DNA of 10,205 nt from a virus (IMGVR_UViG_2531839454_000024); one strand, 5' to 3'; shown: positions 1,009-10,205, numbered from the stretch's first letter. Notes: generated by a model not told the origin, from the sequence alone. A program made the numbers and translations.

Positions 1009-1083
1009 GTCCTCTTAGTTAAATGGATATAACGAGCCCCTCCTAAGGGCTAATTGCAGGTTCGATTCCTGCAGGGGACACTT
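1009..1083 (+). tRNA. argW: tRNA-Arg (anticodon CCU)
   Basis: Cloverleaf readable by eye: acceptor GTCCTCT / AGGGGAC, anticodon loop CTCCTAA with CCT anticodon, T-arm GCAGG-TTCGATT-CCTGC. Sequence ends ...GGGGACAC then TT (1082-1083) rather than CCA, so only the first C of the 3' CCA is encoded. Confidence 0.9.
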
Positions 1084-1256
1084 TAAAGACCTTTCTCTAC
1101 ATTTCACTTCATTACATAACCACTTAAAAAAAACAGTAAGTTATCACCGAATCGGCCTGATTTTCATTTCAGTTAATTTCATGACATTACAACCTCGTGA
1201 TGGTATAAGTGATGGTATTCCCCAGTTCGATATGCAGATACCATCAATTTACCAAA

Positions 1257-2543
1257 ATGAGTACAGATATGGCCATTAATGTGCTTTCCCCCAAACAGAT
1301 AGAAAACGCCAAGCCGAAGACCAATGATTACAAACTTACCGATGGAGGGAGTTTGTATCTACTGGTACGAAAGACTGGTGGAAAATACTGGCGTATGAAT
1401 TATCGTTTTGATGGAAAACAAGTGACATTGGCATTAGGGGTCTACCCAGATGTCTCACTTGCAACAGCGCGGAAACGGCGTGATGAAGCCAGGCAACTAC
1501 TAGCCGATGGCCGTGATCCTCGCGAAGCAAAGAAACCCAAAAAGGAAGACCCAATTTCCCCCACGTTCGAGAGTGTTGCCAGAGAGTGGCATAGTGGAAC
1601 GATGGGGCATCCTGAGTGGAAAGAGATCACCCGTAAAAAAATTCTCCGAGAAATGGAAAACCACCTCTTTCCTGCCATCGGTTCAAAGCCTATCGATACG
1701 CTCAAAACCCGTGACTTGATGCCGATGCTGGTTGAGATGACTGAGAAAGGAATTGGTGCCACAACGAGCCGGGTAAAAACCACTATGACGAGCATCTTCC
1801 GTTATGCCGTGCAACGTGGAATTGTCGATTACAACCCTGCCCACGATCTAAAAGGTGCAATTACGGCCCCCAAAGTACGACATCGCCCCGCACTACCTCT
1901 CGAACGTTTACCTGAACTGTTAGCGAAAACGAGAAGTTACACGGGAAGACCATTGACTCGCCTAGCAGTTCTCTTTTCCCTGCACACTTTTGTGCGATCC
2001 AGCGAACTACGACATGCCAGATGGGAGGAGATCGACATTGAAAATGGGCTATGGACGATACCAGGACAACGTGAAGAGATCGCAGGGGTTAAATTCTCAG
2101 ATCGGGGTGCAAAGATGGGGGCTGCTCATTATGTCCCGCTATCTAGTCAGGCTATCGGGGTACTGGAGGATATAAGGAAAATCAGTGGTGAATATCTGCT
2201 GGTTTTCCCCGGTGACAGCAACCCATATAAACCGATGAGCGAAAACACAGTTAATAAAGCACTGCGAACGATGGGTTACGACACTCAAACTGATGTATGC
2301 TTACATGGGTTCAGGGCGATGGCCTGCTCTGCACTGACCGAATCAGGACTCTGGTCACGCGATGCAGTTGAACGGCAGATGAGTCACCAAGAAAGAAACG
2401 AAGTGCGGGCAGCATATGTGCATCTTGCGCAGCACATGCAGGAACGCCGCAGAATGATGCAATGGTGGTCTAATTATCTGGAACTAAATAAGGACGAATT
2501 TCATGCTCCTTATGACTTATCAGGTATTAACATTATCAATTAA
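1257..2543 (+). CDS. int: P4-type tyrosine integrase (site-specific recombinase, tRNA-targeting)
   Basis: N-terminal arm-binding-type motif (KQIENAKPK...YKLTDGGSLYLLV...KYWRMNYRF...TLALGVYPDVSLATARKRRDEAR) typical of P4 Int. C-terminal catalytic region has HGFRAMA and a terminal AAYVHL tyrosine. Start is uncertain: ATG 1257 or ATG 1269; the 1209 GTG extension in the ORF track is unlikely. Sits directly 3' of a tRNA gene, as is usual for this family. Confidence 0.9.
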   Translation: MSTDMAINVLSPKQIENAKPKTNDYKLTDGGSLYLLVRKTGGKYWRMNYRFDGKQVTLALGVYPDVSLATARKRRDEARQLLADGRDPREAKKPKKEDPISPTFESVAREWHSGTMGHPEWKEITRKKILREMENHLFPAIGSKPIDTLKTRDLMPMLVEMTEKGIGATTSRVKTTMTSIFRYAVQRGIVDYNPAHDLKGAITAPKVRHRPALPLERLPELLAKTRSYTGRPLTRLAVLFSLHTFVRSSELRHARWEEIDIENGLWTIPGQREEIAGVKFSDRGAKMGAAHYVPLSSQAIGVLEDIRKISGEYLLVFPGDSNPYKPMSENTVNKALRTMGYDTQTDVCLHGFRAMACSALTESGLWSRDAVERQMSHQERNEVRAAYVHLAQHMQERRRMMQWWSNYLELNKDEFHAPYDLSGINIIN

Positions 2544-2556
2544 ATACTCTTATAAT
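2527..2556 (+). promoter_or_regulatory. Candidate sigma70 promoter for the orphan gene (TTAACA-N18-TATAAT)
   Basis: TTAACA at 2527-2532, 18-bp spacer, perfect TATAAT at 2551-2556. Overlaps the last codons of int. Followed by SD AGAGG (2564-2568) and ATG 2574. Confidence 0.4.
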
Positions 2557-2573
2557 TTAAAACAGAGGTCATA

Positions 2574-3455
2574 ATGCAGCATTCAACAGAGAATGAAACT
2601 ATATTCTTAGGAAATCTATGGATTGACAAAAAAATACCACCATTAGAATATTGTTCATTTGAACGCGCTTCAAGACTATTAGAATGCGAGATTGATGATT
2701 TATTACACCTATACGAAATAGGCGCTTTTAATATCGCATTCAAGGCGGATGGACTTGCAGTTAGATTTAATGTTAATTTCCTCAATAAAAATCAGAAAGT
2801 GGAAATTGACTTAATTCATCCCGTATTAACTAATCAATCACTAGAGATGGAATTTTCAACAATATGGTATGACCTTAAAGATGATTCCTTTGAACATTTT
2901 GAAAATGGGCTTCAAATTATAGGATTTGCCTGTGGTATTTGGTACGCCGATGATATGATAAGTGACATAAAAAATGGATTAGCTATAGATCCAGATTATG
3001 AATTCAGGCTTAAACCGGTAAAAATACGAGATAATGTTTTGATGGCAACGGCCTCATATGAAGGAAATAAGGTCATTGATATTCCATTTGAAGATCTTCT
3101 TATCATGCGAAGAGATTTAGAGTTAATATGGAAATCAGTAAAAACTGGAATTCCTATGCCAAGTTTACTTACGAAAAGAATTTCATCTGAACCTAAAATC
3201 CCCAAGCGATTAAATAACACTGCTGAGCATCATGCAAAAAATAGGGAGGGGTTATTAAATGCAGCCATATATATATTAGCAAAATACCCAAGCGAATGTC
3301 GTGGTGAAAGAAAAGAGATAAGTCCTGAAAAGTGGACTAACGCCATAATTAAACATTTAGGAGAGCTACCTCCAATATTTATCACTAATGAACAAGAAAT
3401 CTTAAGAAAATTACGATTAGCGGTTAATCATGCGGGATTAAAACAAAAGGGGTAG
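2574..3455 (+). CDS. Hypothetical protein, 293 aa, no family recognised; AT-rich orphan cargo gene
   Basis: Clean ORF with a strong SD 5 nt upstream. Markedly lower G+C than its neighbours (about one third by hand count of four 60-nt samples). No TM helices and no motif I can assign. Confidence 0.8.
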   Translation: MQHSTENETIFLGNLWIDKKIPPLEYCSFERASRLLECEIDDLLHLYEIGAFNIAFKADGLAVRFNVNFLNKNQKVEIDLIHPVLTNQSLEMEFSTIWYDLKDDSFEHFENGLQIIGFACGIWYADDMISDIKNGLAIDPDYEFRLKPVKIRDNVLMATASYEGNKVIDIPFEDLLIMRRDLELIWKSVKTGIPMPSLLTKRISSEPKIPKRLNNTAEHHAKNREGLLNAAIYILAKYPSECRGERKEISPEKWTNAIIKHLGELPPIFITNEQEILRKLRLAVNHAGLKQKG

Positions 3456-3521
3456 ACTGAAACAATCTACAGGTAGAGTTGATTACACTACCTTCACAGC
3501 ATTTTGATATCCCCATAGTAT

Positions 3522-3550
3522 CTGCCGTGTTCATTACATAACACGGCAGG
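3522..3550 (+). promoter_or_regulatory. Perfect 10-bp inverted repeat (CTGCCGTGTT-9 nt-AACACGGCAG) just upstream of alpA
   Basis: Arms 3522-3531 and 3541-3550 are exact reverse complements. The loop is CATTACATA. The right arm abuts the weak alpA SD. Could be a terminator for the upstream orphan gene (no U-tract) or an operator or RBS-sequestering hairpin. Confidence 0.35.
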
Positions 3551-3557
3551 TAATTTC

Positions 3558-3773
3558 ATGACATTAAAAACTTATCCTATCACTGGACATGCCCGCCCAC
3601 GAGCTACTGCTGACTTTTTGCAAATAAGTACGGTTACTCTCTGGCGCTGGGAAAAGAACAATCCTGAATTTCCCAAATCTATACGCATTTCAAAACGGGT
3701 ATCTGTTTACGATGCACAAGAAATTAGGCAGTGGGTTAAAGCTCAATCAGCAGGATTGGAGGAAGTAGTGTAA
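3558..3773 (+). CDS. alpA: AlpA-family phage transcriptional regulator (excisionase-like HTH)
   Basis: 71-aa protein with the Phage_AlpA-type pattern FLQISTVTLWRWEKNNPEFPKSIRIS...VYDAQEIRQWV. Located downstream of a P4-type int, as in CP4-57-type islands. Confidence 0.85.
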   Translation: MTLKTYPITGHARPRATADFLQISTVTLWRWEKNNPEFPKSIRISKRVSVYDAQEIRQWVKAQSAGLEEVV

Positions 3774-3791
3774 TGACAATATTAACAAAGC

Positions 3792-3813
3792 TGGGGAGAA
3801 AAAAGCCTCCCCA
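3792..3813. terminator. Hairpin between convergent alpA and RHH genes (possible bidirectional terminator)
   Basis: Stem TGGGGAG 3792-3798 / CTCCCCA 3807-3813 with an A-rich 8-nt loop. Lies between the alpA stop (3773) and the stop of the minus-strand ORF (3823). Confidence 0.35.
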
Positions 3814-3822
3814 ACGTATTAA

Positions 3823-4017
3823 TCAATTCTTTGGTTCTAAACCTCGGCTTTGTAACTCTTTGCGTAGAATGCGCTTGATCCAAGCCGCTAGCGATTCATC
3901 GCCATCCTGCTGTTGTGCTTGTTCCATCAGTTCACGCAGTTCAGGGTCAAGTCGGAACTGGAATGGCGGATTCCCACGTCTTTCATTTTTGTGTGTTGAC
4001 ACGTCAATTACACCCAT
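3823..4017 (-). CDS. Small ribbon-helix-helix (Arc/CopG-like) DNA-binding protein, putative satellite repressor
   Basis: 64-aa ORF. PPFQFRLDPELRELMEQ...SLAAWIKRILRKEL fits a beta-strand plus two-helix RHH pattern. Divergent from the downstream replication operon. No clear SD, so the start is uncertain. Confidence 0.55.
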   Translation of the reverse strand: MGVIDVSTHKNERRGNPPFQFRLDPELRELMEQAQQQDGDESLAAWIKRILRKELQSRGLEPKN

Positions 4018-4051
4018 TGTAATGTATTTATGTGTAATGACACATTACACA
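3996..4051 (+). promoter_or_regulatory. Candidate promoter and operator for the replication operon
   Basis: TTGACA 3996-4001, 16-bp spacer, TGTAAT 4018-4023. Directly downstream is a perfect palindrome TGTGTAATG-ACA-CATTACACA (arms 4031-4039 and 4043-4051). Confidence 0.4.
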
Positions 4052-4133
4052 CAGAAAAACAAAATAGCAACGCCCCGGAGTGTTTGCAGCAGCACCGAGG
4101 CGTCTGACCAGCACGTTATATGAGGTAACGAAG

Positions 4134-4310
4134 ATGGCTAAACAGAAGTGTACCTGGTTATTTGCGGCGATCAACCGCAGTCAACGTAATGCCCGTCCGG
4201 TGATGTTAAGGATCACCGCAGATAACGAACGATCAGCGCGGCGCAGACTTGCCCCGGACTATGTACTGAGCTTTGCCGGGCGCATTCCCTGCGGAGGGGA
4301 ACATGCGTAA
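4134..4310 (+). CDS. Icd-like small protein (host cell division inhibitor Icd-like family), tentative
   Basis: 58 aa from ATG 4134 with SD GAGG 4122-4125. The sequence KCTWLFAAINRS...PVMLRITADNERSARRRLAPDYVLSFAGRIP matches my recollection of the Icd-like family common in P4-like elements. The GTG 4080 extension was rejected. Confidence 0.5.
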   Translation: MAKQKCTWLFAAINRSQRNARPVMLRITADNERSARRRLAPDYVLSFAGRIPCGGEHA

Positions 4311-4662
4311 TTATCCGCACCCCGGCGAACGCTGGCAGCATGAACGTGGCTGGACGGTCACGATTATCCGATTAATAGAAGCCTCGCCCTCTGTGGCGCT
4401 GGTTAATCCTGAATTCAGCTGTGAAGTGCTGATACGTCATGACAGCGACAACCAGCTATCTTCCTGCCCTCTGGCATGGTTTGAACAGCGGTATACGCGC
4501 CTGTTTGATGTACCGCTCTTTAAGCCTGCACCAGCTCCTGCAGGCGGTAGTGGTTCCGGCCCGCTGACACTGCATCCGTCTGTGCTATTTATCCGCTGGC
4601 GGGAGCGTAGCATATGGCGTTCTGCTGAGCCTGACGACGGTCACTATTCAAAGTTTCTCTGA
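4303..4662 (+). CDS. Hypothetical protein (possibly Ash-family-like), 119 aa
   Basis: ATG 4303 overlaps the stop of the Icd-like gene by 8 nt, with SD GGAGGGGA upstream. Coding-like composition. Family assignment is only from memory of typical P4-like annotations. Confidence 0.55.
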   Translation: MRNYPHPGERWQHERGWTVTIIRLIEASPSVALVNPEFSCEVLIRHDSDNQLSSCPLAWFEQRYTRLFDVPLFKPAPAPAGGSGSGPLTLHPSVLFIRWRERSIWRSAEPDDGHYSKFL

Positions 4663-4693
4663 CAAAATACCGCTGAAAACGGAGTAATCCACG

Positions 4694-4978
4694 ATGAATA
4701 TTTCAAACGGGCACAACGGTGCTCAGGGCCACACTTTGCCTGAAAAACACAATACCGGTGCTTTTGCCTATGGGTTGTCAGAGGACAGTTTCGGAAAGCT
4801 GACCCGCGCAAAAAATGCCTGCGACATGCTCCAGCTTCTCTTTTCTGAATACCCGTCTCAGGCCGGAGCACTGGACGCTGGCTGTGCGCATGGTGTCGCC
4901 GCGCTGATGGAGTACCTGCTGGCAGATTTGACGGATATTGCACACAGCTGCGCACTGATTGAAGGAGGTGCCAGATGA
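4694..4978 (+). CDS. Hypothetical protein, 94 aa
   Basis: ATG 4694 preceded by GGAG (4681-4684). Its stop overlaps the next start (ATGA at 4975-4978). Confidence 0.6.
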   Translation: MNISNGHNGAQGHTLPEKHNTGAFAYGLSEDSFGKLTRAKNACDMLQLLFSEYPSQAGALDAGCAHGVAALMEYLLADLTDIAHSCALIEGGAR

Positions 4979-5358
4979 ACCAGCCGCAGGTTTCCATTTT
5001 CCCGGCAGAAATGACCACCGCGCTTTACCGGCGGGCTATTGCTTCAGCATGGCGGCAGAAAATGCTGAACGAAACTGGTAGTGATCAGTATGGTCCGCAC
5101 AGCCTGACGGTGGAGCGTATTGAAATGGCCATTGCGCTGCATATCGAGTGCGTACTGATTAACGAGTACGGCGAAGTGCAGGGCGCCGCTGCCGCGCTGG
5201 CACTGCTGACTGACATGCTGGAGCCATCACTGCTGACCGCGCCGCCGGTACTGACCGCGCGCGGCTGTGAAGTGATGGCGGAGATGTACCGCACGCTTCC
5301 GGCGGCCTTTGATGACTTCTGCAGTACCGGTGTGACGTTGTATGAGGGGGAAGTATGA
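4975..5358 (+). CDS. Hypothetical protein, 127 aa
   Basis: Translationally coupled on both sides (ATGA overlaps at 4975-4978 and 5355-5358). SD-like GAAGGAGG upstream. Confidence 0.6.
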   Translation: MNQPQVSIFPAEMTTALYRRAIASAWRQKMLNETGSDQYGPHSLTVERIEMAIALHIECVLINEYGEVQGAAAALALLTDMLEPSLLTAPPVLTARGCEVMAEMYRTLPAAFDDFCSTGVTLYEGEV

Positions 5359-8027
5359 CAATACAGACGGTTACGCAGATTTCAGCCGCCGCACGGGGGA
5401 AATGGCCCGTTATTCTGCAGATGCTGCGTATTGATGTACCTGAAAACGGCAGGCACGGCCCCTGCCCGAAATGTGGGGGCAAGGATCGTTTTCGCCTTGA
5501 TGACCTTGACGGGCGCGGGACGTGGATCTGCAGCCAGTGTGGCAATGGTGACGGTCTGGATCTGGTTAAGCTCGTAACCGGTTACAGCGTCAGAAAGGCT
5601 GCGCAGGAGGTGGCGCAGGTGCTTAATGTGCCGGATGTGCAGGAACTGCCTGTTAAGCCTGCCAGACAAAAAGCCCCTAAACGCGACATGGGTCTTACCG
5701 TGGCGGCGCTGATGAAAGAGAGCCACACGGGAGAAAGCGCCTATCTGACAGGAAAAGGGTTCGCCGGATACCCGGCCTCTCTGACCGGAAGCGTGCAGCA
5801 TATCAGCGGTAAGGATTTTCCTGCCGGTTCCCTGCTGTTACCACTCACGACCAACACCGGAGCCGTGACCGGTGCACAGCTTATCGCCCCGACGGGTGAA
5901 AAAAGCATACTGCCCGGCAGCACGATGAAAGGCGCGTTTGTGTCGCTCAGCCCGTTACCGTCTGAACCACCGGTACAGGTGGTGATTACCGAAGGTTACG
6001 CTACGGCGCTGACGGTAAGCCAGCTCACTGCCGGATGCGTAGTGGCTGCCATATCTGCGGGCAACCTGCCCAATGTGGCGCAGTCGCTGCGGGCACGCTG
6101 GCCTGAGGTAAAAATTATCATCGCCGGTGATAACGATTTTCAGGACGGGGGGGAGAATCCCGGCAGAGCCTTTGCTGAACGGGCGGCAAAAGCTGTTGGC
6201 GGCTGGATGACGCTGCCACCAGGAGAGATTAAGGCTGACTGGAATGACTTTCATCGGGAGCACGGTATTACCCGTGCCCGTGAAGCCTTTCGCAACGGTC
6301 TGGTACTGTGCGGGGAAGGCCGCACGCAACTGCCGCACGGGTTCCGTCTTACCCAGGAATATCTCTGGTATGAAAAGCAGGTACAGCGCAACGGTGAGAC
6401 GGAGATCCAGAACGTCAAAATATGCAGCCCGCTGCGCGTGACGGCAATCACCTGCGATGCCGATGGCGGTAACTTCGGACGACTGCTGGAATGGGAAGAT
6501 ACGTGGGGTGAGTGTCGCCGCTGGGCGATGCCGATGGAAATGCTGAGCGGCAGTGGTGAGGAACTGCGCCGGGTACTGCTGGTTAACGGGCTGTCTTATA
6601 TCAGCACCACCGGTGAGGCACGCGCACGCCTGATGGAATATATCTCACTGTGTAAACCGGAACGCCGCGTGACCTGCGTCAGTCGTACTGGCTGGCATGG
6701 TCAGGTTTACGTCCTGCAGGATGAGGTCAGCGGTGAAGGTGCAGAGGGTGTCATTCTCCAGACCACTTCCGTGCAGGGGCGTGATTTCCGCGTGTCGGGC
6801 ACAACAGAGGAATGGCGGGAGCATGTATCCCGCTACTGTACCGGCAACTCCCGCGTGGCATTTGCTGTCAGCCTGGCCTTTGCTGCACCACTGTTACGGC
6901 TGGTTGGTATGGACGGCGGCGGCTACCACCTAAAAGGGGAATCGACAGACGGTAAGACCACCACCATGAAAGCGGCAACCTCCGTCTGCGGCGGGCCTGA
7001 CTACTGGCAGACATGGCGGGCCACCGGCAACGCGCTGGAGGGATGCGCCAGCCGCCGCAACGATGCCGCCATGATGCTTGATGAGATCCGGGAAGTTGAC
7101 GGACGCGAGGCAGGCAATATCGCCTACATGCTGGCAAACGGTCAGGGCAAGGGCCGTGCCGGTACGGACGGTGAGCTGCGTACCCGTAAGCAGTGGCGCC
7201 TGTTGTTCTTTTCAACTGGCGAGTTGTCTCTGACCGAACATGCGGCAAAGGCCGGTGAGCGTACTTTTGCCGGGATGGAAGTCAGGATGATCCAGATCCC
7301 AAGCGATTCCGGGAAGTTTGGCGTTTTTGAGGAGCTGCACGGCTTCGACAGCGGCAAGGCTCTGGCAGAGCATCTTGAATGGGCCACGTCCTGCTACTAC
7401 GGTTCGCCGTTCCGGGAGTGGCTGAAAGCACTGACCGCTGATCTTAACGGACTAACGGCACAGGCAAAATCGCTGATGAAGGAATATGCTGCCGCCCTGA
7501 CTCCTAAAGATGCAGGCAATCAGGTGGGCCGGGCTGTGAACCGCTTTGCACTGGTGGCGATGGCAGGTGAACTGGCAACCCGTCTGGGTATCACCGGCTG
7601 GCCTGAGGGTGAAGCACTGCGGGCAACCCGCGTCTGCCTGAACGCATGGCTGAAAGATCGCGGGCACACCGCCAATCAGGAAGATATCGCCGCACTGGAG
7701 CAGGTTCGCAGTTTCTTTACCGCGAATCAGTACAGCCGCTTTGCAGACTGGTATGACGAGCGCAACCGCCCCGGCAATATGGTGGGCTGGCGCAGGGTGG
7801 AGAAAGGCAGTACCGCGCAGGGCACGGAAGCTGTCACTACGTTCTATGTCATGCCGTCCGGCTGGAAAGAAATCTGCAGGGGATTTGACCCGCGTAAGGT
7901 GGCGCGTCTGTGCGCAGATCGTGGATACCTGCTGCCCTCCACTGATGGCAAACTCCAGACAACCATTCGCCCGCCAGAGATGAATCCCCGCAGGCTCTAT
8001 GTCTTCAACAGCGAGGTGCCGGGTTAA
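5355..8027 (+). CDS. Primase-helicase, P4 alpha-like (zinc-ribbon + TOPRIM + P-loop NTPase, DUF927-type)
   Basis: 890 aa. N-terminal CPKCGG...CSQCG zinc ribbon; TOPRIM-like ITEGYATALTV and IIAGDND; Walker A GESTDGKTT and Walker B-like MMLDEI. Iteron array lies immediately downstream. Confidence 0.9.
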   Translation: MTIQTVTQISAAARGKWPVILQMLRIDVPENGRHGPCPKCGGKDRFRLDDLDGRGTWICSQCGNGDGLDLVKLVTGYSVRKAAQEVAQVLNVPDVQELPVKPARQKAPKRDMGLTVAALMKESHTGESAYLTGKGFAGYPASLTGSVQHISGKDFPAGSLLLPLTTNTGAVTGAQLIAPTGEKSILPGSTMKGAFVSLSPLPSEPPVQVVITEGYATALTVSQLTAGCVVAAISAGNLPNVAQSLRARWPEVKIIIAGDNDFQDGGENPGRAFAERAAKAVGGWMTLPPGEIKADWNDFHREHGITRAREAFRNGLVLCGEGRTQLPHGFRLTQEYLWYEKQVQRNGETEIQNVKICSPLRVTAITCDADGGNFGRLLEWEDTWGECRRWAMPMEMLSGSGEELRRVLLVNGLSYISTTGEARARLMEYISLCKPERRVTCVSRTGWHGQVYVLQDEVSGEGAEGVILQTTSVQGRDFRVSGTTEEWREHVSRYCTGNSRVAFAVSLAFAAPLLRLVGMDGGGYHLKGESTDGKTTTMKAATSVCGGPDYWQTWRATGNALEGCASRRNDAAMMLDEIREVDGREAGNIAYMLANGQGKGRAGTDGELRTRKQWRLLFFSTGELSLTEHAAKAGERTFAGMEVRMIQIPSDSGKFGVFEELHGFDSGKALAEHLEWATSCYYGSPFREWLKALTADLNGLTAQAKSLMKEYAAALTPKDAGNQVGRAVNRFALVAMAGELATRLGITGWPEGEALRATRVCLNAWLKDRGHTANQEDIAALEQVRSFFTANQYSRFADWYDERNRPGNMVGWRRVEKGSTAQGTEAVTTFYVMPSGWKEICRGFDPRKVARLCADRGYLLPSTDGKLQTTIRPPEMNPRRLYVFNSEVPG

Positions 8028-8061
8028 GGCTTTGCGTGAGTCTTATTTATTAAGGGTAACA

Positions 8062-8249
8062 GGTGAAACAGGTGGAACAACCGTATTTTACAGGGCTGAA
8101 CCTGTTCCACCTTCTGAAATAGTGAGGTGGAACAGATGTAACGCCAGCCAATCCGCTGTTCCACCTTGTTACCCGCGATGTTCCACCGGTGCAGTGTATA
8201 TAAATGCTTTATAAAACAAAGCAGTAACACATGTTTCACCTGTTCCACC
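8062..8249. repeat. Iteron array, probable satellite replication origin
   Basis: Eight copies of the 9-mer TGTT(C/T)CACC. Plus orientation at 8103-8111, 8157-8165, 8179-8187, 8232-8240, 8241-8249; minus orientation at 8062-8070, 8071-8079, 8126-8134. Tandem pairs at both ends in opposite orientation. AT-rich stretch 8194-8231 sits between clusters. Confidence 0.6.
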
Positions 8250-8337
8250 GCATCAGGGACATAAAGCAGACTGAAACAGAGGGTATTTTTATCTGGCTGG
8301 CTTTCATAGCCACGTCTGAATAACCGCAAGCGTCCGT

Positions 8338-8393
8338 TGTGCCAGCCACCACACACTGAGCACCGATAGTGTGCTTGTGTCAGCCACGACACA
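8338..8393 (+). promoter_or_regulatory. Psid-like late promoter with two Ogr/Delta-type TGT-N12-ACA dyads
   Basis: TGT-N12-ACA at 8338-8355 and again at 8376-8393, centres 38 bp apart. ATG 8428 with SD AGGAG 8418-8422. Spacing is compatible with activator sites near -55 and -18 relative to a start around 8400. Confidence 0.5.
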
Positions 8394-8427
8394 ATTGACG
8401 TAACGAACCAACCCGACAGGAGAAGTC

Positions 8428-9171
8428 ATGAACAACACCGCAGTGAATAACAACCTTTCCACTTTTCCGGCTGTAACGCAGCGGGCACTGGAAACCATGA
8501 ACACAGCCAGAAACGCATGGCTTGAAGCACGTCGTCAGCAGAAAGCGGCAGCGGATAATATTGCGACAATCCGCCAGCGTCGCGCTGAAATGGAAGCCAC
8601 GACGAACACACTGAATGAGGAGTGGCGCACGCTGTTTCGTGAAAGTCAGGGCGTGGTCTCAAAGGAAATGAAAAAACTGCGCACGGAAATTGCGCTGGGA
8701 CGAGAAACGCTTGAGGATTTTGATGAGCTGCTGGCGGCTCAGGAAAGCGAAAATGCACTTTTGCCGCAGAAAGCTGCGGAATTAGCCGGAAAGTATATCC
8801 ACGCGCATAACATTCTTGTGGATATTCGCGCAAAACAAATCTGGGAAGATTTTATGCAGTCGCATGGAAAAGCGCTTATTCAGACGCTGAGCCTGCTTAA
8901 ATCCACAATGGGCCGGGAAGCCAGTGCCGTTGTGGGTGTGGTGAATTCAGTTAATGACCCGGACACAGTGCTGAAAGACTTTATTCATAAACATATCACC
9001 AGACCGGCTCTGGCTAACGATGCGATGCCTGAACAGGACCCGGTGTTTAAACTGGCGGGAGTTGCCCCGGATTATGCGGCGCGTCTGGATTTCAGTAATC
9101 AACTCTCTCCGGCAGCTATGCATAAAATAAAGGTTCGTCAGGAACTTGCTGAGAAGGAGAAAGCTGTATGA
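8428..9171 (+). CDS. Sid/Psu-family protein, probable capsid size determination (Sid-like) protein
   Basis: 247 aa (P4 Sid is about 244 aa). Helical, A/E/K/R/Q-rich. Contains WEDFMQSHGKAL, the same motif class as the next gene's SNFMQANGAAL. Sits behind the late promoter. Confidence 0.45.
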   Translation: MNNTAVNNNLSTFPAVTQRALETMNTARNAWLEARRQQKAAADNIATIRQRRAEMEATTNTLNEEWRTLFRESQGVVSKEMKKLRTEIALGRETLEDFDELLAAQESENALLPQKAAELAGKYIHAHNILVDIRAKQIWEDFMQSHGKALIQTLSLLKSTMGREASAVVGVVNSVNDPDTVLKDFIHKHITRPALANDAMPEQDPVFKLAGVAPDYAARLDFSNQLSPAAMHKIKVRQELAEKEKAV

Positions 9172-9719
9172 CGGCCCGAGGCACACCTGACCAGGCACTT
9201 ACCAGTTTTCGGAATGCCCGTATTCTGTGGGCCGGACATAGTGAGACCCGAAAAGCCGTTGAACAACAGATAGCATCTCTCCTCGCTGCCACAGAAAAAC
9301 CAACAGATTATGCCCGACAGCTCGAATTACTGCGGGAACGTCTGGATGTGCTGAAATGGCAAATTAACTGTGCTGCTCGCGAATGCATTTACTCGCAGCA
9401 TTTATTGATGGAGGCCTGCACTGAAGCTGCTCTCAGCAATTTTATGCAGGCGAATGGGGCAGCCCTGACATCTGCACTGGCTCCGTTCCTGAAGGGGCGC
9501 GGAGGGGTTGACGTTGCGTCCCGTATATTACGCAGTGCTCTGGTTCGCCAGCTGGCAATAACACCGCCTGAAATTGCCGGGGATTATCGTGAGATCCTGG
9601 ATGAATCCGGTTTGATGCCAGACCCCGGGATGATTCGTGATTGCCAGGGCTCTTACACCCCGGCACAACATCTGCGTTTTCAGCAACGCCTGAATGACAT
9701 TAACGATATACAGGAGTGA
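9168..9719 (+). CDS. psu: Psu-like polarity suppression protein
   Basis: 183 aa (P4 Psu is about 190 aa). Motifs KWQINCAARECI, FMQANGAALTSALAP and YTPAQ match my recollection of P4 Psu. Start ATGA overlaps the upstream stop. Followed by an Ogr/Delta-like gene. Confidence 0.6.
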   Translation: MTARGTPDQALTSFRNARILWAGHSETRKAVEQQIASLLAATEKPTDYARQLELLRERLDVLKWQINCAARECIYSQHLLMEACTEAALSNFMQANGAALTSALAPFLKGRGGVDVASRILRSALVRQLAITPPEIAGDYREILDESGLMPDPGMIRDCQGSYTPAQHLRFQQRLNDINDIQE

Positions 9720-9724
9720 TATTA

Positions 9725-9848
9725 ATGGCACTTAAATGTCCGGAATGCGGTACAGTTGCACACGCCAGAACAGCAGCCTATGAAGCTCCGTCAGTTAAAC
9801 GCTCGTGGTATCAGTGCCAGAATCTGGAATGTTCCTGCACATTTACGG
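9725..9848 (+). pseudogene. Ogr/Delta-like zinc-finger late-gene activator, truncated by IS66-family insertion
   Basis: MALKCPECGTVAHARTAAYEAPSVKRSWYQCQNLECSCTF aligns to the P2 Ogr pattern C-x2-C...HARTS...QCQN..C. Homology stops near codon 42, where the IS end GTAAGCG begins (9849). SD CAGGAG 9711-9716. Confidence 0.7.
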
Positions 9849-10205
9849 GTAAGCGACTCGTCAGAACCGTATTGATATTTACTGAGAGCTCAGATCAACT
9901 TTCCAGGGCAACAGATCGCGTACCCGGTTTGCCGGCCAATCCTGGATATGTTCAATGACGTAACGCAGCCACTTTTCTGGCTCCACATTGTTCAGACGGC
10001 ATGTGCCGATCAGCGAGTACAACACCGCCGCATGTTCACCACCGCTGTCGGAACCCGCGAACATCCAGTTTTTCCGGCCTACGGCCACTCCCCGTAAGGC
10101 GTTCTCTGCGATGTTGTTGTCGATTTCCACCCAGCCATTACTGCAGTACACGTTCAGTGCATCCCACTGTTTCAGCAGGTATGCGAACGCTTTTGCCGTA
10201 TCTGA
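9849..10205 (-). mobile_element. IS66-family insertion sequence, right-hand end only (continues past window edge)
   Basis: Terminus begins GTAAGCG at 9849-9855, typical of IS66-family ends. Carries the C-terminal part of an IS66-type transposase on the minus strand. Confidence 0.8.
9879..10205 (-). CDS. IS66-family transposase (TnpC), C-terminal fragment, 5' end outside window
   Basis: Minus-strand frame is open to the window edge. Translation ...AFAYLLKQWDALNVYCSNGWVEIDNNIAENALRGVAVGRKNWMFAGSDSGGEHAAVLYSLIGTCRLNNVEPEKWLRYVIEHIQDW... is the conserved IS66 transposase C-terminus. Stop TAA at 9879-9881. Confidence 0.85.
   Translation of the reverse strand, partial: SDTAKAFAYLLKQWDALNVYCSNGWVEIDNNIAENALRGVAVGRKNWMFAGSDSGGEHAAVLYSLIGTCRLNNVEPEKWLRYVIEHIQDWPANRVRDLLPWKVDLSSQ

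What the first reader, a model, noticed from the sequence alone, without database searches (positions are those of the whole stretch)
1082..10205. A P4-like satellite occupying argW with an alpha-proximal layout and an unusual set of modules
Seen: from the tRNA outward the element carries int, orphan cargo, alpA, RHH, Icd-like, small ORFs, primase, iterons, late promoter, Sid-like, Psu-like, truncated Delta-like and IS66. Established: in E. coli K-12 the argW site is known for the CPS-53/KpLE1 prophage, so this looks like a different occupant of the same site. Inference: an inducible but late-activator-defective satellite. Its right part, beyond the IS and not visible here, is where additional cargo would be expected.
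Basis: partly seen in the sequence, partly recalled or inferred. Interest (0 to 1): 0.45.

Follow-up and report, generated by a model that had tools for sequence, protein, structure and literature searches.

The report
Rearranged P4-like phage satellite at argW
This is a P4-type phage satellite, a small mobile element that steals the capsid of a P2-like phage, sitting in the E. coli argW tRNA gene; its kind is well known, but it belongs to an under-described sub-lineage with a different gene order, helicase and switch, and this copy is crippled by an insertion sequence.

Summary
From argW (tRNA-Arg CCT) outward the window holds int, a 293-aa orphan gene, alpA, a reverse Arc-like RHH gene, an Icd/Kil-like gene, two small ORFs, a cnr-like DUF5375 gene and a primase-helicase. 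Then come eight iterons, a Psid-type late promoter, sid, psu and a delta gene cut after codon 41 by an IS66-family element (ISCro1).

IS-free relatives show the whole element: 11,173 bp between 21-bp att repeats, with no structural genes. Beyond delta lie a P2-type cos region and one cargo gene, a PD-(D/E)xK nuclease-fold protein with a SEC-C motif. In relatives this slot holds IetAS or a type II-A retron.

The early and late operons are co-directional, unlike P4. This is not a one-off: the core is in 322 of 5,426 complete E. coli genomes and in six other genera. In 29 IMG/VR loci the layout tracks the helicase type exactly. The lineage also lacks P4's CI RNA and epsilon and instead has variable small regulators with matching operators.

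Verdict: a new variant of a known kind. This copy is probably impaired for transfer. Moderate interest.

The parts
1009..1081 (+). argW, tRNA-Arg(CCT), the integration target
   Evidence: ARAGORN; Rfam tRNA, 63 bits; same yfdC-argW context as K-12
1061..1081 (.). attL core: 21 bp, TTCGATTCCTGCAGGGGACAC, repeated at attR outside the window
   Evidence: Exact direct repeat 11,173 bp away in the IS-free relative L002. In ATCC 43896 the attR copy has a 1-nt deletion and lies 13,880 bp away
1108..1189 (+). Two copies of the 12-mer TTCATKACATWA between attL and int; two more lie at 3530 and 3555. Candidate binding sites for a regulator or recombination factor
   Evidence: 4 matches in the window against 0.17 expected, none elsewhere. 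No copies near attR
1269..2543 (+). Tyrosine integrase of the P4 Int type
   Evidence: Pfam Arm-DNA-bind_3, Phage_int_M and Phage_integrase; 52% identical to P4 Int
2574..3455 (+). orf293: low-GC gene of unknown function. N-terminus resembles a MerR/Xis-type winged helix; the C-terminal ~70 aa are very conserved. Variable slot between int and alpA
3522..3549 (+). 10-bp-stem hairpin just upstream of alpA, carrying one of the 12-mers in its loop
   Evidence: Sequence read; only a weak sub-threshold RybB-like Rfam match
3558..3773 (+). AlpA/Vis-family HTH protein: excisionase or activator candidate
   Evidence: Pfam Phage_AlpA, E 1.6e-7; phrog_4745 and phrog_66
3823..4017 (-). Arc-like ribbon-helix-helix protein, transcribed divergently from the early operon; candidate immunity repressor
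   Evidence: phrog_228 Arc-like repressor, E 8.9e-6. Weak YlcI/YnfO match. Replaced by other small regulators in relatives, with matching operator changes
4031..4051 (.). Palindrome TGTGTAATG-ACA-CATTACACA overlapping divergent promoter-like hexamers; candidate operator
   Evidence: Sequence. Promoter-like hexamers on both strands here. The repeat motif changes together with the regulator type in relatives
4069..4102 (+). Conserved stem-loop in the leader of the early operon
   Evidence: RNAalifold consensus over 9 loci; 5 pairs keep pairing after changes on both sides. No Rfam family
4134..4310 (+). Icd/Kil-like small protein, first gene of the early operon
   Evidence: NCBIfam phage_ICD_like, E 5.5e-24. 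54% identical to the Kil part of the P4 cI/kil ORF. Same PHROGs, 6928 and 1743, as P4
4303..4662 (+). hyp119, a lineage-specific early gene
   Evidence: phrog_30862. Only weak similarity to P4 orf151, E 0.014. Conserved in all collinear relatives
4694..4978 (+). hyp94, a lineage-specific early gene in roughly the position of P4 epsilon, but not homologous to it
   Evidence: phrog_14861, whereas P4 epsilon is phrog_10016 and PF25738. No Pfam hit
4975..5358 (+). DUF5375 protein, homologue of P4 Cnr (orf106)
   Evidence: Pfam DUF5375; 40% identical to P4 orf106; phrog_5991 for both
5355..8027 (+). Primase-helicase: a P4-alpha-type zinc ribbon and Toprim primase fused to a DUF927 helicase of the SaPI Rep / SCCmec Cch type
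   Evidence: Pfam Zn_Ribbon_Prim, Toprim_3, DUF927. Residues 5-316 are 38% identical to P4 alpha; the rest has no match. PDB 8tch and 5dgk. P4 alpha has D5_N, DUF5906 and Pox_D5 instead
8062..8249 (.). Candidate origin: 8 iterons TGTTYCACC in both orientations (the P4 type-1 repeat is TGTTCACC)
   Evidence: 8 matches, all here, against 0.19 expected. It is the only cluster in the whole element, and it is conserved in 8 related loci; P4 repeats listed for comparison
8338..8393 (+). Psid-type late promoter region: two TGT-N12-ACA dyads 38 bp apart, the second ending 35 nt before the sid ATG
   Evidence: P4 Psid has identical spacing, with dyads at 9493 and 9531 and the ATG at 9583. Conserved in all related loci
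8428..9171 (+). Sid homologue (external scaffold for small capsids)
   Evidence: phrog_6165, E 8.7e-93, the family of P4 Sid; 24% identical to P4 Sid, E 1e-11
9168..9719 (+). Psu homologue
   Evidence: Pfam Psu, E 2.3e-44; phrog_6366; 30% identical to P4 Psu. Absent from the non-E. coli relatives
9725..9848 (+). First 41 codons of a 90-aa single-domain Delta/Ogr zinc-finger activator, cut by the IS
   Evidence: Pfam Ogr_Delta. Intact 90-aa gene in L002. Junction and 8-bp target duplication ATTTACGG
9849..10205 (-). End of a 2,697-bp IS66-family element (ISCro1), including the C-terminus of its transposase
   Evidence: Pfam DDE_Tnp_IS66 and IS66_C; RefSeq annotation; breakpoints

Best explanation
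The element is an integrated phage satellite of the P4 family. It belongs to a distinct 'collinear' sub-lineage and parasitises P2-like (Peduoviridae) helper phages.

Shown here:
- It sits in the 3' end of argW between 21-bp direct repeats.
- It is 11.2 kb without the IS.
- It has no virion genes.
- It carries homologues of P4 Int, Vis/AlpA, Kil, Cnr, the alpha primase domain, Sid, Psu and Delta.
- It has a single iteron cluster almost identical to P4's, a late promoter with the exact geometry of P4 Psid, and a cos region homologous to that of P2-like phages.

Inferred working:
1. A small divergently transcribed regulator, here an Arc-like RHH protein, binds a palindromic operator and keeps the early operon (kil-like, hyp119, hyp94, cnr-like, primase-helicase) silent. 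This takes the place of P4's CI RNA.
2. On helper activity, Int and AlpA excise the element, and the primase-helicase replicates it from the iterons downstream of its own gene.
3. Helper Ogr and the satellite's own Delta switch on the late promoter.
4. Sid forces small capsids, Psu decorates them, and Delta transactivates the helper's late genes.
5. The helper terminase packages the 11-kb genome from cos.
6. The slot between cos and attR carries exchangeable anti-phage cargo. Here it is a single PD-(D/E)xK-fold protein with a C-terminal SEC-C zinc motif.

In this particular copy ISCro1 splits delta after codon 41 and lengthens the element to 13.9 kb. It has therefore lost its own late activator and probably packages poorly. 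It may still respond to helper Ogr.
For: - Boundaries and size.
- Gene content and homology to P4.
- Iterons.
- Late promoter with the same geometry as P4 Psid.
- The cos region is homologous to the gpA-to-portal interval of P2-like phages, is conserved among satellites, and its similarity ends where the cargo begins.
- Regulators and operators change together across relatives.
- No CI RNA, with positive controls.
- IS insertion with target duplication. An intact delta in most relatives.
- Recent mobility: a core about 99% identical lies at argW, thrW and leuX with different integrases, and the lineage occurs in six other genera.
Against: - No experiment shows excision, replication or packaging.
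- No helper was identified in this strain. The only cos of this type in ATCC 43896 is the satellite's own.
- Epsilon, the P4 helper-derepression protein, has no detectable homologue, so how a resident helper would be awakened is unknown.
- The repressor role of the RHH protein and the defence role of the SEC-C protein rest on position and fold only.
- The cos cleavage site is inferred from alignment and is not identical to the P2/P4 19-mer.
- The promoter scan as a whole was no better than chance.
Confidence: 0.85

Rival explanations
1. The element is best seen as a chimera or a separate satellite lineage rather than a rearranged P4. On this view a PICI/CP4-57-type backbone (int, variable gene, alpA, protein repressor, and a replicase with a SaPI-Rep-like DUF927 helicase, all in one direction) captured the P4 late operon, Psid promoter and cos. 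It works as described above but has a different evolutionary origin.
For: - The left arm runs int, X, alpA and then primase in one direction.
- The helicase domain matches a pathogenicity-island protein and the SCCmec Cch helicase (PDB 8tch, 5dgk), not the D5-type module of P4 alpha.
- CI RNA and epsilon are absent.
- The same sid-psu-delta operon, 92.6% identical, sits in a canonical P4 backbone in O157:H7.
- In 29 IMG/VR loci the layout matches the helicase type without exception: 21 collinear loci have DUF927 and 8 canonical loci have the alpha type.
Against: The early operon still carries P4-specific genes: the Kil-like gene, the Cnr/DUF5375 gene, the alpha primase domain at 38% identity, and near-identical iterons. 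The backbone is therefore itself P4-related. No PICI-specific packaging or redirection genes are present.
Confidence: 0.35
2. In this strain the element is a decaying, immobile remnant that persists only as a chromosomal island carrying a defence gene. It no longer functions as a satellite.
For: - ISCro1 splits delta.
- The element has grown to 13,880 bp.
- attR has a 1-nt deletion relative to attL.
- No second cos of this type is present in the genome.
Against: All other ORFs are intact and 99-100% identical to IS-free copies. IS66-family insertions are simple and recent; only 3 genomes carry this one. Helper Ogr could still drive the late promoter (established P4 biology).
Confidence: 0.4
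3. The region is a fragment of a larger conventional prophage.
For: None found.
Against: The 21-bp att repeats delimit 11.2 kb. The flanks are the normal yfdC/argW and dsd (or csc) chromosomal genes. There are no capsid, tail or lysis genes.
Confidence: 0.01

Closest known systems
Satellite phage P4 (NC_001609)
   Same: - Size of about 11 kb and integration into a tRNA gene by a homologous integrase (52% identical).
- Shared families: AlpA/Vis, Kil-like, Cnr/DUF5375, the alpha primase domain, Sid, Psu and Delta.
- Iterons TGTTCACC in P4 and TGTTYCACC here.
- A Psid promoter with two TGT-N12-ACA dyads 38 bp apart, the second ending 35 nt before the sid ATG.
- A cos site next to a variable cargo slot.

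   Different: - The late operon lies downstream of the primase and runs in the same direction, rather than diverging from the early operon. As a result int lies next to the early genes and the cargo next to attR.
- There is one iteron cluster instead of ori plus crr.
- The helicase is DUF927 rather than D5_N/DUF5906/Pox_D5.
- There is no C4/CI RNA, no isrK-like leader and no epsilon.
- Delta has one Ogr domain (90 aa) rather than two (166 aa).
- The late gene order is sid-psu-delta rather than sid-delta-psu.

Canonical P4-like element of E. coli O157:H7 (e.g. NZ_CP022050, locus L013)
   Same: The sid-psu-delta operon is 92.6% identical, the cos region is the same, and a defence cargo lies next to cos.
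   Different: It has the canonical divergent layout, with int beside the cargo. Its primase is of the P4-alpha type. It has the C4 and isrK RNAs.
Gram-negative PICIs, the CP4-57-type islands, and SaPI replication modules
   Same: The order int, variable gene, alpA and then replicase runs in one direction. The DUF927 helicase is related to a pathogenicity-island protein and to the Cch helicase. The layout resemblance is recalled from the literature and was not tested here.
   Different: This element has the P4 capsid-size and hijacking genes (Sid, Psu, Delta), an Ogr-type late promoter and a P2-type cos. None of these defines a PICI.
P4/P2 cos-adjacent defence hotspots (Rousset et al. 2022, PMC9122126; Moura de Sousa et al. 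2026, PMC13586616)
   Same: A variable cargo slot lies directly next to cos and holds known systems in relatives, namely IetAS and a type II-A retron.
   Different: Here the slot lies between delta/cos and attR, not between psu and int. A search for an integrase downstream of psu, as described in PMC9122126, would not retrieve it.

Membership tests
P4-like satellites (seven-component definition of Moura de Sousa & Rocha, PMC8628076 and PMC10085698) | Integrase | tested here: met
   Three integrase domains; 52% identical to P4 Int
P4-like satellites | Sid | tested here: met
   phrog_6165, E 8.7e-93, the same family as P4 Sid; BLASTP to P4 Sid, E 1e-11
P4-like satellites | Psu | tested here: met
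   Pfam Psu, E 2.3e-44. Absent from the non-E. coli relatives of the lineage
P4-like satellites | Delta | tested here: met
   Ogr_Delta zinc finger; phrog_603, as for P4 Delta. In this copy the gene is split by ISCro1
P4-like satellites | AlpA-type regulator | tested here: met
   Pfam Phage_AlpA, E 1.6e-7
P4-like satellites | Epsilon (helper derepression protein) | tested here: not met
   P4 epsilon is PF25738 and phrog_10016. No element protein hits either or P4 epsilon by BLASTP. The published definition tolerates one missing component ('Type B')
P4-like satellites | Alpha primase/replicase | tested here: inconclusive
   The primase half is homologous, 38% over residues 5-316. The helicase half is a different domain, DUF927 rather than D5_N/DUF5906/Pox_D5
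P4-like satellites | Conserved order int-psu-delta-sid-alpA-epsilon-alpha | tested here: not met
   The order is int-alpA-primase-sid-psu-delta. This order is not among the variants listed in PMC8628076
P4-like satellites | P2-type cos, size near 11 kb, no virion genes | tested here: met
P4 RNA-based immunity (CI/C4 RNA) | A C4-family RNA upstream of kil | tested here: not met
   RF01695 and RF01394 hit P4 and the O157 element but not the window or L014
PICI (phage-inducible chromosomal islands) | int, alpA/regulator and pri-rep without P4-type Sid/Psu/Delta, plus PICI-type packaging interference genes | tested here: not met
   Sid, Psu and Delta are present. No PICI packaging genes were seen among the annotated ORFs. 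Only the layout and the helicase type resemble PICIs
Known anti-phage defence systems (PADLOC-DB v2), for the cargo genes | Match to a defence protein model over the functional domain | tested here: not met
   The SEC-C protein matches only through its 25-residue SEC-C motif, and orf293 matches nothing. The fold is PD-(D/E)xK nuclease-like. A defence role is inferred from position only

The most novel reading that the evidence does not exclude
The collinear elements may be a separate, widespread satellite lineage that has gone unnoticed as such. On this reading they are a P4/PICI-like chimera with four features. The P4 RNA immunity and epsilon have been replaced by interchangeable protein repressor-operator cassettes, of which at least four specificities were seen. 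A single iteron cluster serves a primase fused to a SaPI-Rep-type helicase. The cos-adjacent defence hotspot sits at the attR end and so escapes psu-to-int searches. The roughly 490-aa PD-(D/E)xK plus SEC-C protein, with more than 890 homologues, is a new single-gene anti-phage system.
Probability: 0.35. Interest if true: 0.55.

Novelty: new variant of a known kind. Interest (0 to 1): 0.4.

Why it matters
P4-like satellites are described in the literature as having a very conserved gene order, and their defence hotspots have been mined by looking between psu and int.

This element belongs to a lineage that breaks that order. The lineage is found in about 6% of complete E. coli genomes and in several other Enterobacterales. 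It carries its defence cargo at the other end, and it appears to have swapped P4's RNA-based immunity and its helicase for other modules.

Recognising it would have three practical effects. It would widen satellite and defence-island searches. It would offer a natural comparison for how satellite control circuits evolve. It would nominate a widespread nuclease-fold protein with a SEC-C motif as a candidate defence gene.

The particular copy in the window is a damaged example and adds little by itself.

Tried and rejected
- BLAST of the P4 cos junction against the element gave only weak, non-significant matches. The cos call rests instead on homology to P2-like phages and on conservation among satellites.
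- Rfam scans of the window at E<=1, and of 3990-4150 at E<=10, found no CI/C4 or other credible RNA apart from the tRNA.
- The sigma-70 promoter and terminator scan of the whole element was no better than shuffled sequence. I used it only to note hexamers around the palindrome.
- Megablast of the core against the deposited phage collection found no match.
- None of the three satellite papers has supplementary tables held as text, so I could not check whether this genome's element is already listed.
- I could not establish whether ATCC 43896 carries a P2-like helper. Only one cos of this type is present, the satellite's own.
- The 122-aa reverse ORF at 8024-8392 overlaps the iterons and has no family hit. 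I treat it as non-coding.
- The idea that the 12-mers are Int arm sites on both sides of attP was dropped, because there are no copies near attR.

Full report
**Source and context.** The window is 100% identical to the chromosome of E. coli ATCC 43896 and two other genomes. It starts in yfdC (1-933, a formate/nitrite transporter), followed by tRNA-Arg(CCT), which is argW, at 1009-1081. In K-12 the same yfdC-argW junction is followed by the cryptic prophage CPS-53 and then dsdC.

**Checking the observation.** All listed features are present in the stated order.
- int, 1269-2543: three integrase domains.
- A 293-aa low-GC gene with no family match.
- alpA, 3558-3773.
- A reverse-strand Arc-like RHH gene, 3823-4017.
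- An Icd-like gene, 4134-4310.
- Two small ORFs, then a DUF5375 gene.
- An 890-aa primase-helicase, 5355-8027.
- Eight copies of TGTTYCACC, all within 8062-8249, against 0.19 expected.
- Two TGT-N12-ACA dyads at 8338 and 8376.
- A Sid homologue, 8428-9171 (phrog_6165, the family of P4 Sid).
- Psu, 9168-9719.
- A Delta/Ogr zinc-finger gene starting at 9725.
- An IS66-family element at the window end.

**The whole element.** Sixty-one complete E. coli genomes hold at least 80% of the window, but only three reach beyond 9848. Comparing ATCC 43896 (L001) with an IS-free strain (L002) shows a simple insertion of ISCro1, 2,697 bp with an 8-bp target duplication ATTTACGG, after codon 41 of a 90-aa Delta.

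In L002 the 21-bp sequence at the 3' end of argW is repeated exactly 11,173 bp downstream. Between delta and this attR lie about 260 bp of non-coding DNA and one reverse-strand gene of 487 aa. The flank beyond is dsdC, or in ATCC 43896 a csc sucrose cluster. There are no virion genes. In ATCC 43896 the element measures 13,880 bp with the IS, and its attR has lost one G.

**Relation to P4.** BLASTP against the P4 proteins gives:
- Int, 52% identical.
- Kil part of the cI/kil ORF, 54% identical.
- Cnr, 40% identical.
- Alpha, 38% identical, but only over residues 5-316.
- Sid 24%, Psu 30%, and the Delta zinc finger 45%.

The PHROG families of Sid, Psu, Delta, Cnr and Kil are the same as those of the P4 proteins.

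The iterons differ from P4's type-1 repeat TGTTCACC by one inserted base.

The late promoter has the same geometry as P4 Psid. In both, the two dyads are 38 bp apart and the second ends 35 nt before the sid ATG.

The non-coding stretch after delta is about 70% identical to the interval between gpA/DinI and the portal gene of P2-like phages, which is where their cos lies. An alignment shows conserved blocks shared by satellites of both layouts and by the phages, including a GGCAGGCGTG(G)CGGGG block at the position of the P2/P4 cohesive end. Similarity stops where the cargo begins. Together these features identify a P4-type satellite of P2-like helpers.

**What is different.**
1. Gene order. In P4 the early operon (vis, cI/kil, epsilon, orf151, cnr, alpha) and the late operon (sid, delta, psu) diverge, and int lies beyond the cargo and cos. 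Here the early and late operons run in the same direction, with int next to the early genes and the cargo next to attR. The survey of more than 1,000 P4-like elements reports 77% with the P4 order, 20% with psu and delta swapped, and about 1% each for two other variants. None of these is this order.
2. Helicase. P4 alpha has D5_N, DUF5906 and Pox_D5. This protein has DUF927, which matches a pathogenicity-island protein (8tch) and the SCCmec Cch helicase (5dgk).
3. Immunity. The Rfam models C4 (RF01695) and isrK (RF01394) find the CI RNA region in P4 and in a canonical O157:H7 P4-like element. They find nothing in the window or in a collinear relative. In its place is a divergent small regulator next to a palindrome, TGTGTAATG-ACA-CATTACACA at 4031-4051.
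4. Epsilon. The P4 epsilon family (PF25738, phrog_10016) has no match in the element.
5. Origin. There is a single iteron cluster, lying both downstream of the primase gene and upstream of sid. P4 has crr and ori at those two positions.

**A lineage, not a one-off.** The core from icd to delta is present at 80% coverage or more in 322 of 5,426 complete E. coli genomes. The same layout occurs in Shigella, Enterobacter, Citrobacter, Pseudocitrobacter and Pantoea. It is found at argW, thrW and leuX with different integrases. The iterons and both dyads are conserved in place in all of these loci.

Among 29 IMG/VR loci whose Sid is 83-100% identical, 21 are collinear and all of those have the DUF927 primase. 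The other 8 have the canonical divergent layout and all of those have a P4-alpha-type primase. In O157:H7 the same sid-psu-delta operon (92.6% identical) and the same cos region sit in a canonical backbone. The late module has therefore moved between backbones.

Upstream of icd the relatives fall into four groups. Each has its own small regulator and its own repeated motif: GTGTAAT/ATTACAC, GGTAATTACC, GTGGGCCACACC or GTGCGATTCAC. This is the pattern expected of exchangeable repressor-operator (immunity) cassettes.

**Cargo.** In relatives the delta-to-attR slot holds IetAS (Shigella, Citrobacter), a type II-A retron (E. coli at leuX) or an unknown 556-aa protein. This matches the published rule that defence hotspots adjoin cos.

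The other variable gene, orf293, is rare, with 14 homologues. It has a possible MerR/Xis-like N-terminus and a strongly conserved C-terminal domain. It may be a regulator rather than cargo.

**Mechanism and state of this copy.** The most likely working is that of P4:
- integration and excision by Int and AlpA;
- repression of the early operon, here by a protein repressor;
- replication from the iterons by the primase-helicase;
- Ogr/Delta-dependent expression of Sid, Psu and Delta;
- packaging from cos by the helper terminase into small capsids.

None of these steps was observed; all are inferred from homology and anatomy. In ATCC 43896, Delta keeps its cysteines but loses residues 42-90, and the element is 24% longer. 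Calling it 'late-activator-defective' is fair for this copy and two sister genomes. In P4, however, helper Ogr can also activate Psid (established knowledge), so the defect is probably partial. The added length may matter as much, though that is an inference. No second cos of this type is present in the strain, so a compatible helper would have to arrive by infection.

**Comparison and verdict.** By the published seven-component definition the intact relatives would count as P4-like with one component (epsilon) missing. The gene order and the helicase domain fall outside the described norm. I therefore file it as a new variant of a known kind: a collinear P4-like sub-lineage that could equally be read as a P4/PICI-like chimera. 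Interest is moderate. Satellites of this family are very well known, and this copy is damaged. The lineage nevertheless contradicts the 'very conserved organisation' picture, places its hotspot where a psu-to-int search would not retrieve it, and appears to have replaced P4's RNA immunity.

Noticed in passing
window 1108-1119, 1178-1189, 3530-3541, 3555-3566: Four same-strand copies of the 12-mer TTCATKACATWA, against 0.17 expected. Two lie upstream of int and two lie at the alpA start, one of them in the loop of a 10-bp-stem hairpin. There are none near attR. They may be shared regulator sites coupling int and alpA expression.
   Followed up: partly
window 4069-4102 (and the same position in L006-L012 and L014): A conserved stem-loop in the leader of the early operon. 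Five of its pairs keep pairing after changes on both sides across nine loci. It matches no Rfam family and its function is unknown.
   Followed up: partly
about 135 bp upstream of icd in L002 and L006-L012, L014: Four distinct pairings of a small regulator with a repeated motif replace each other in front of an otherwise conserved early operon. This looks like heteroimmune cassettes.
   Followed up: partly
window 8062-8249 versus P4 4314-4585 and 9310-9413: The iteron differs from P4's type-1 repeat by a single inserted base. Yet the C-terminal two-thirds of the primase-helicase shows no detectable similarity to P4 alpha, whose C-terminus binds the P4 repeats (the binding role is from memory). 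What recognises the iterons here is unexplained.
   Followed up: no
L007-L012 (Enterobacter, Citrobacter, Pseudocitrobacter, Pantoea): In the non-E. coli/Shigella members of the lineage, psu is absent and sid is followed directly by delta. Psu is therefore optional in this lineage.
   Followed up: partly
L001 30404-35289 (ATCC 43896, downstream of attR): A csc sucrose-utilisation cluster (transporter, kinase, cscA, LacI-type regulator) replaces dsdC and most of dsdX right after the satellite's attR. It is a second insertion at the argW-dsd junction.
   Followed up: no
L001 29941-29961: The attR core in ATCC 43896 has lost one G from the GGGG run relative to attL. The IS-free strain has a perfect 21-bp repeat.
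   Followed up: partly
window 2574-3455 (orf293) and homologues P0006-P0014: The last ~70 residues (AEHHAKNREGLL...CRGERKEISPEKW...) are nearly invariant across proteins whose N-terminal and middle parts differ widely. This is a conserved domain of unknown function attached to variable partners.
   Followed up: partly
L005 4001-6981 (E. coli p13P477T-2, a 37-kb circular P2-like record): A P2-like genome deposited as a plasmid carries the matching cos type. It also has a frameshifted cargo gene between cos and the portal gene, which is the P2 hotspot position.
   Followed up: no
NZ_CP119006 (hit H10): Another argW copy of the same satellite carries an IS1 insertion, so IS hits in this element are recurrent.
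   Followed up: no
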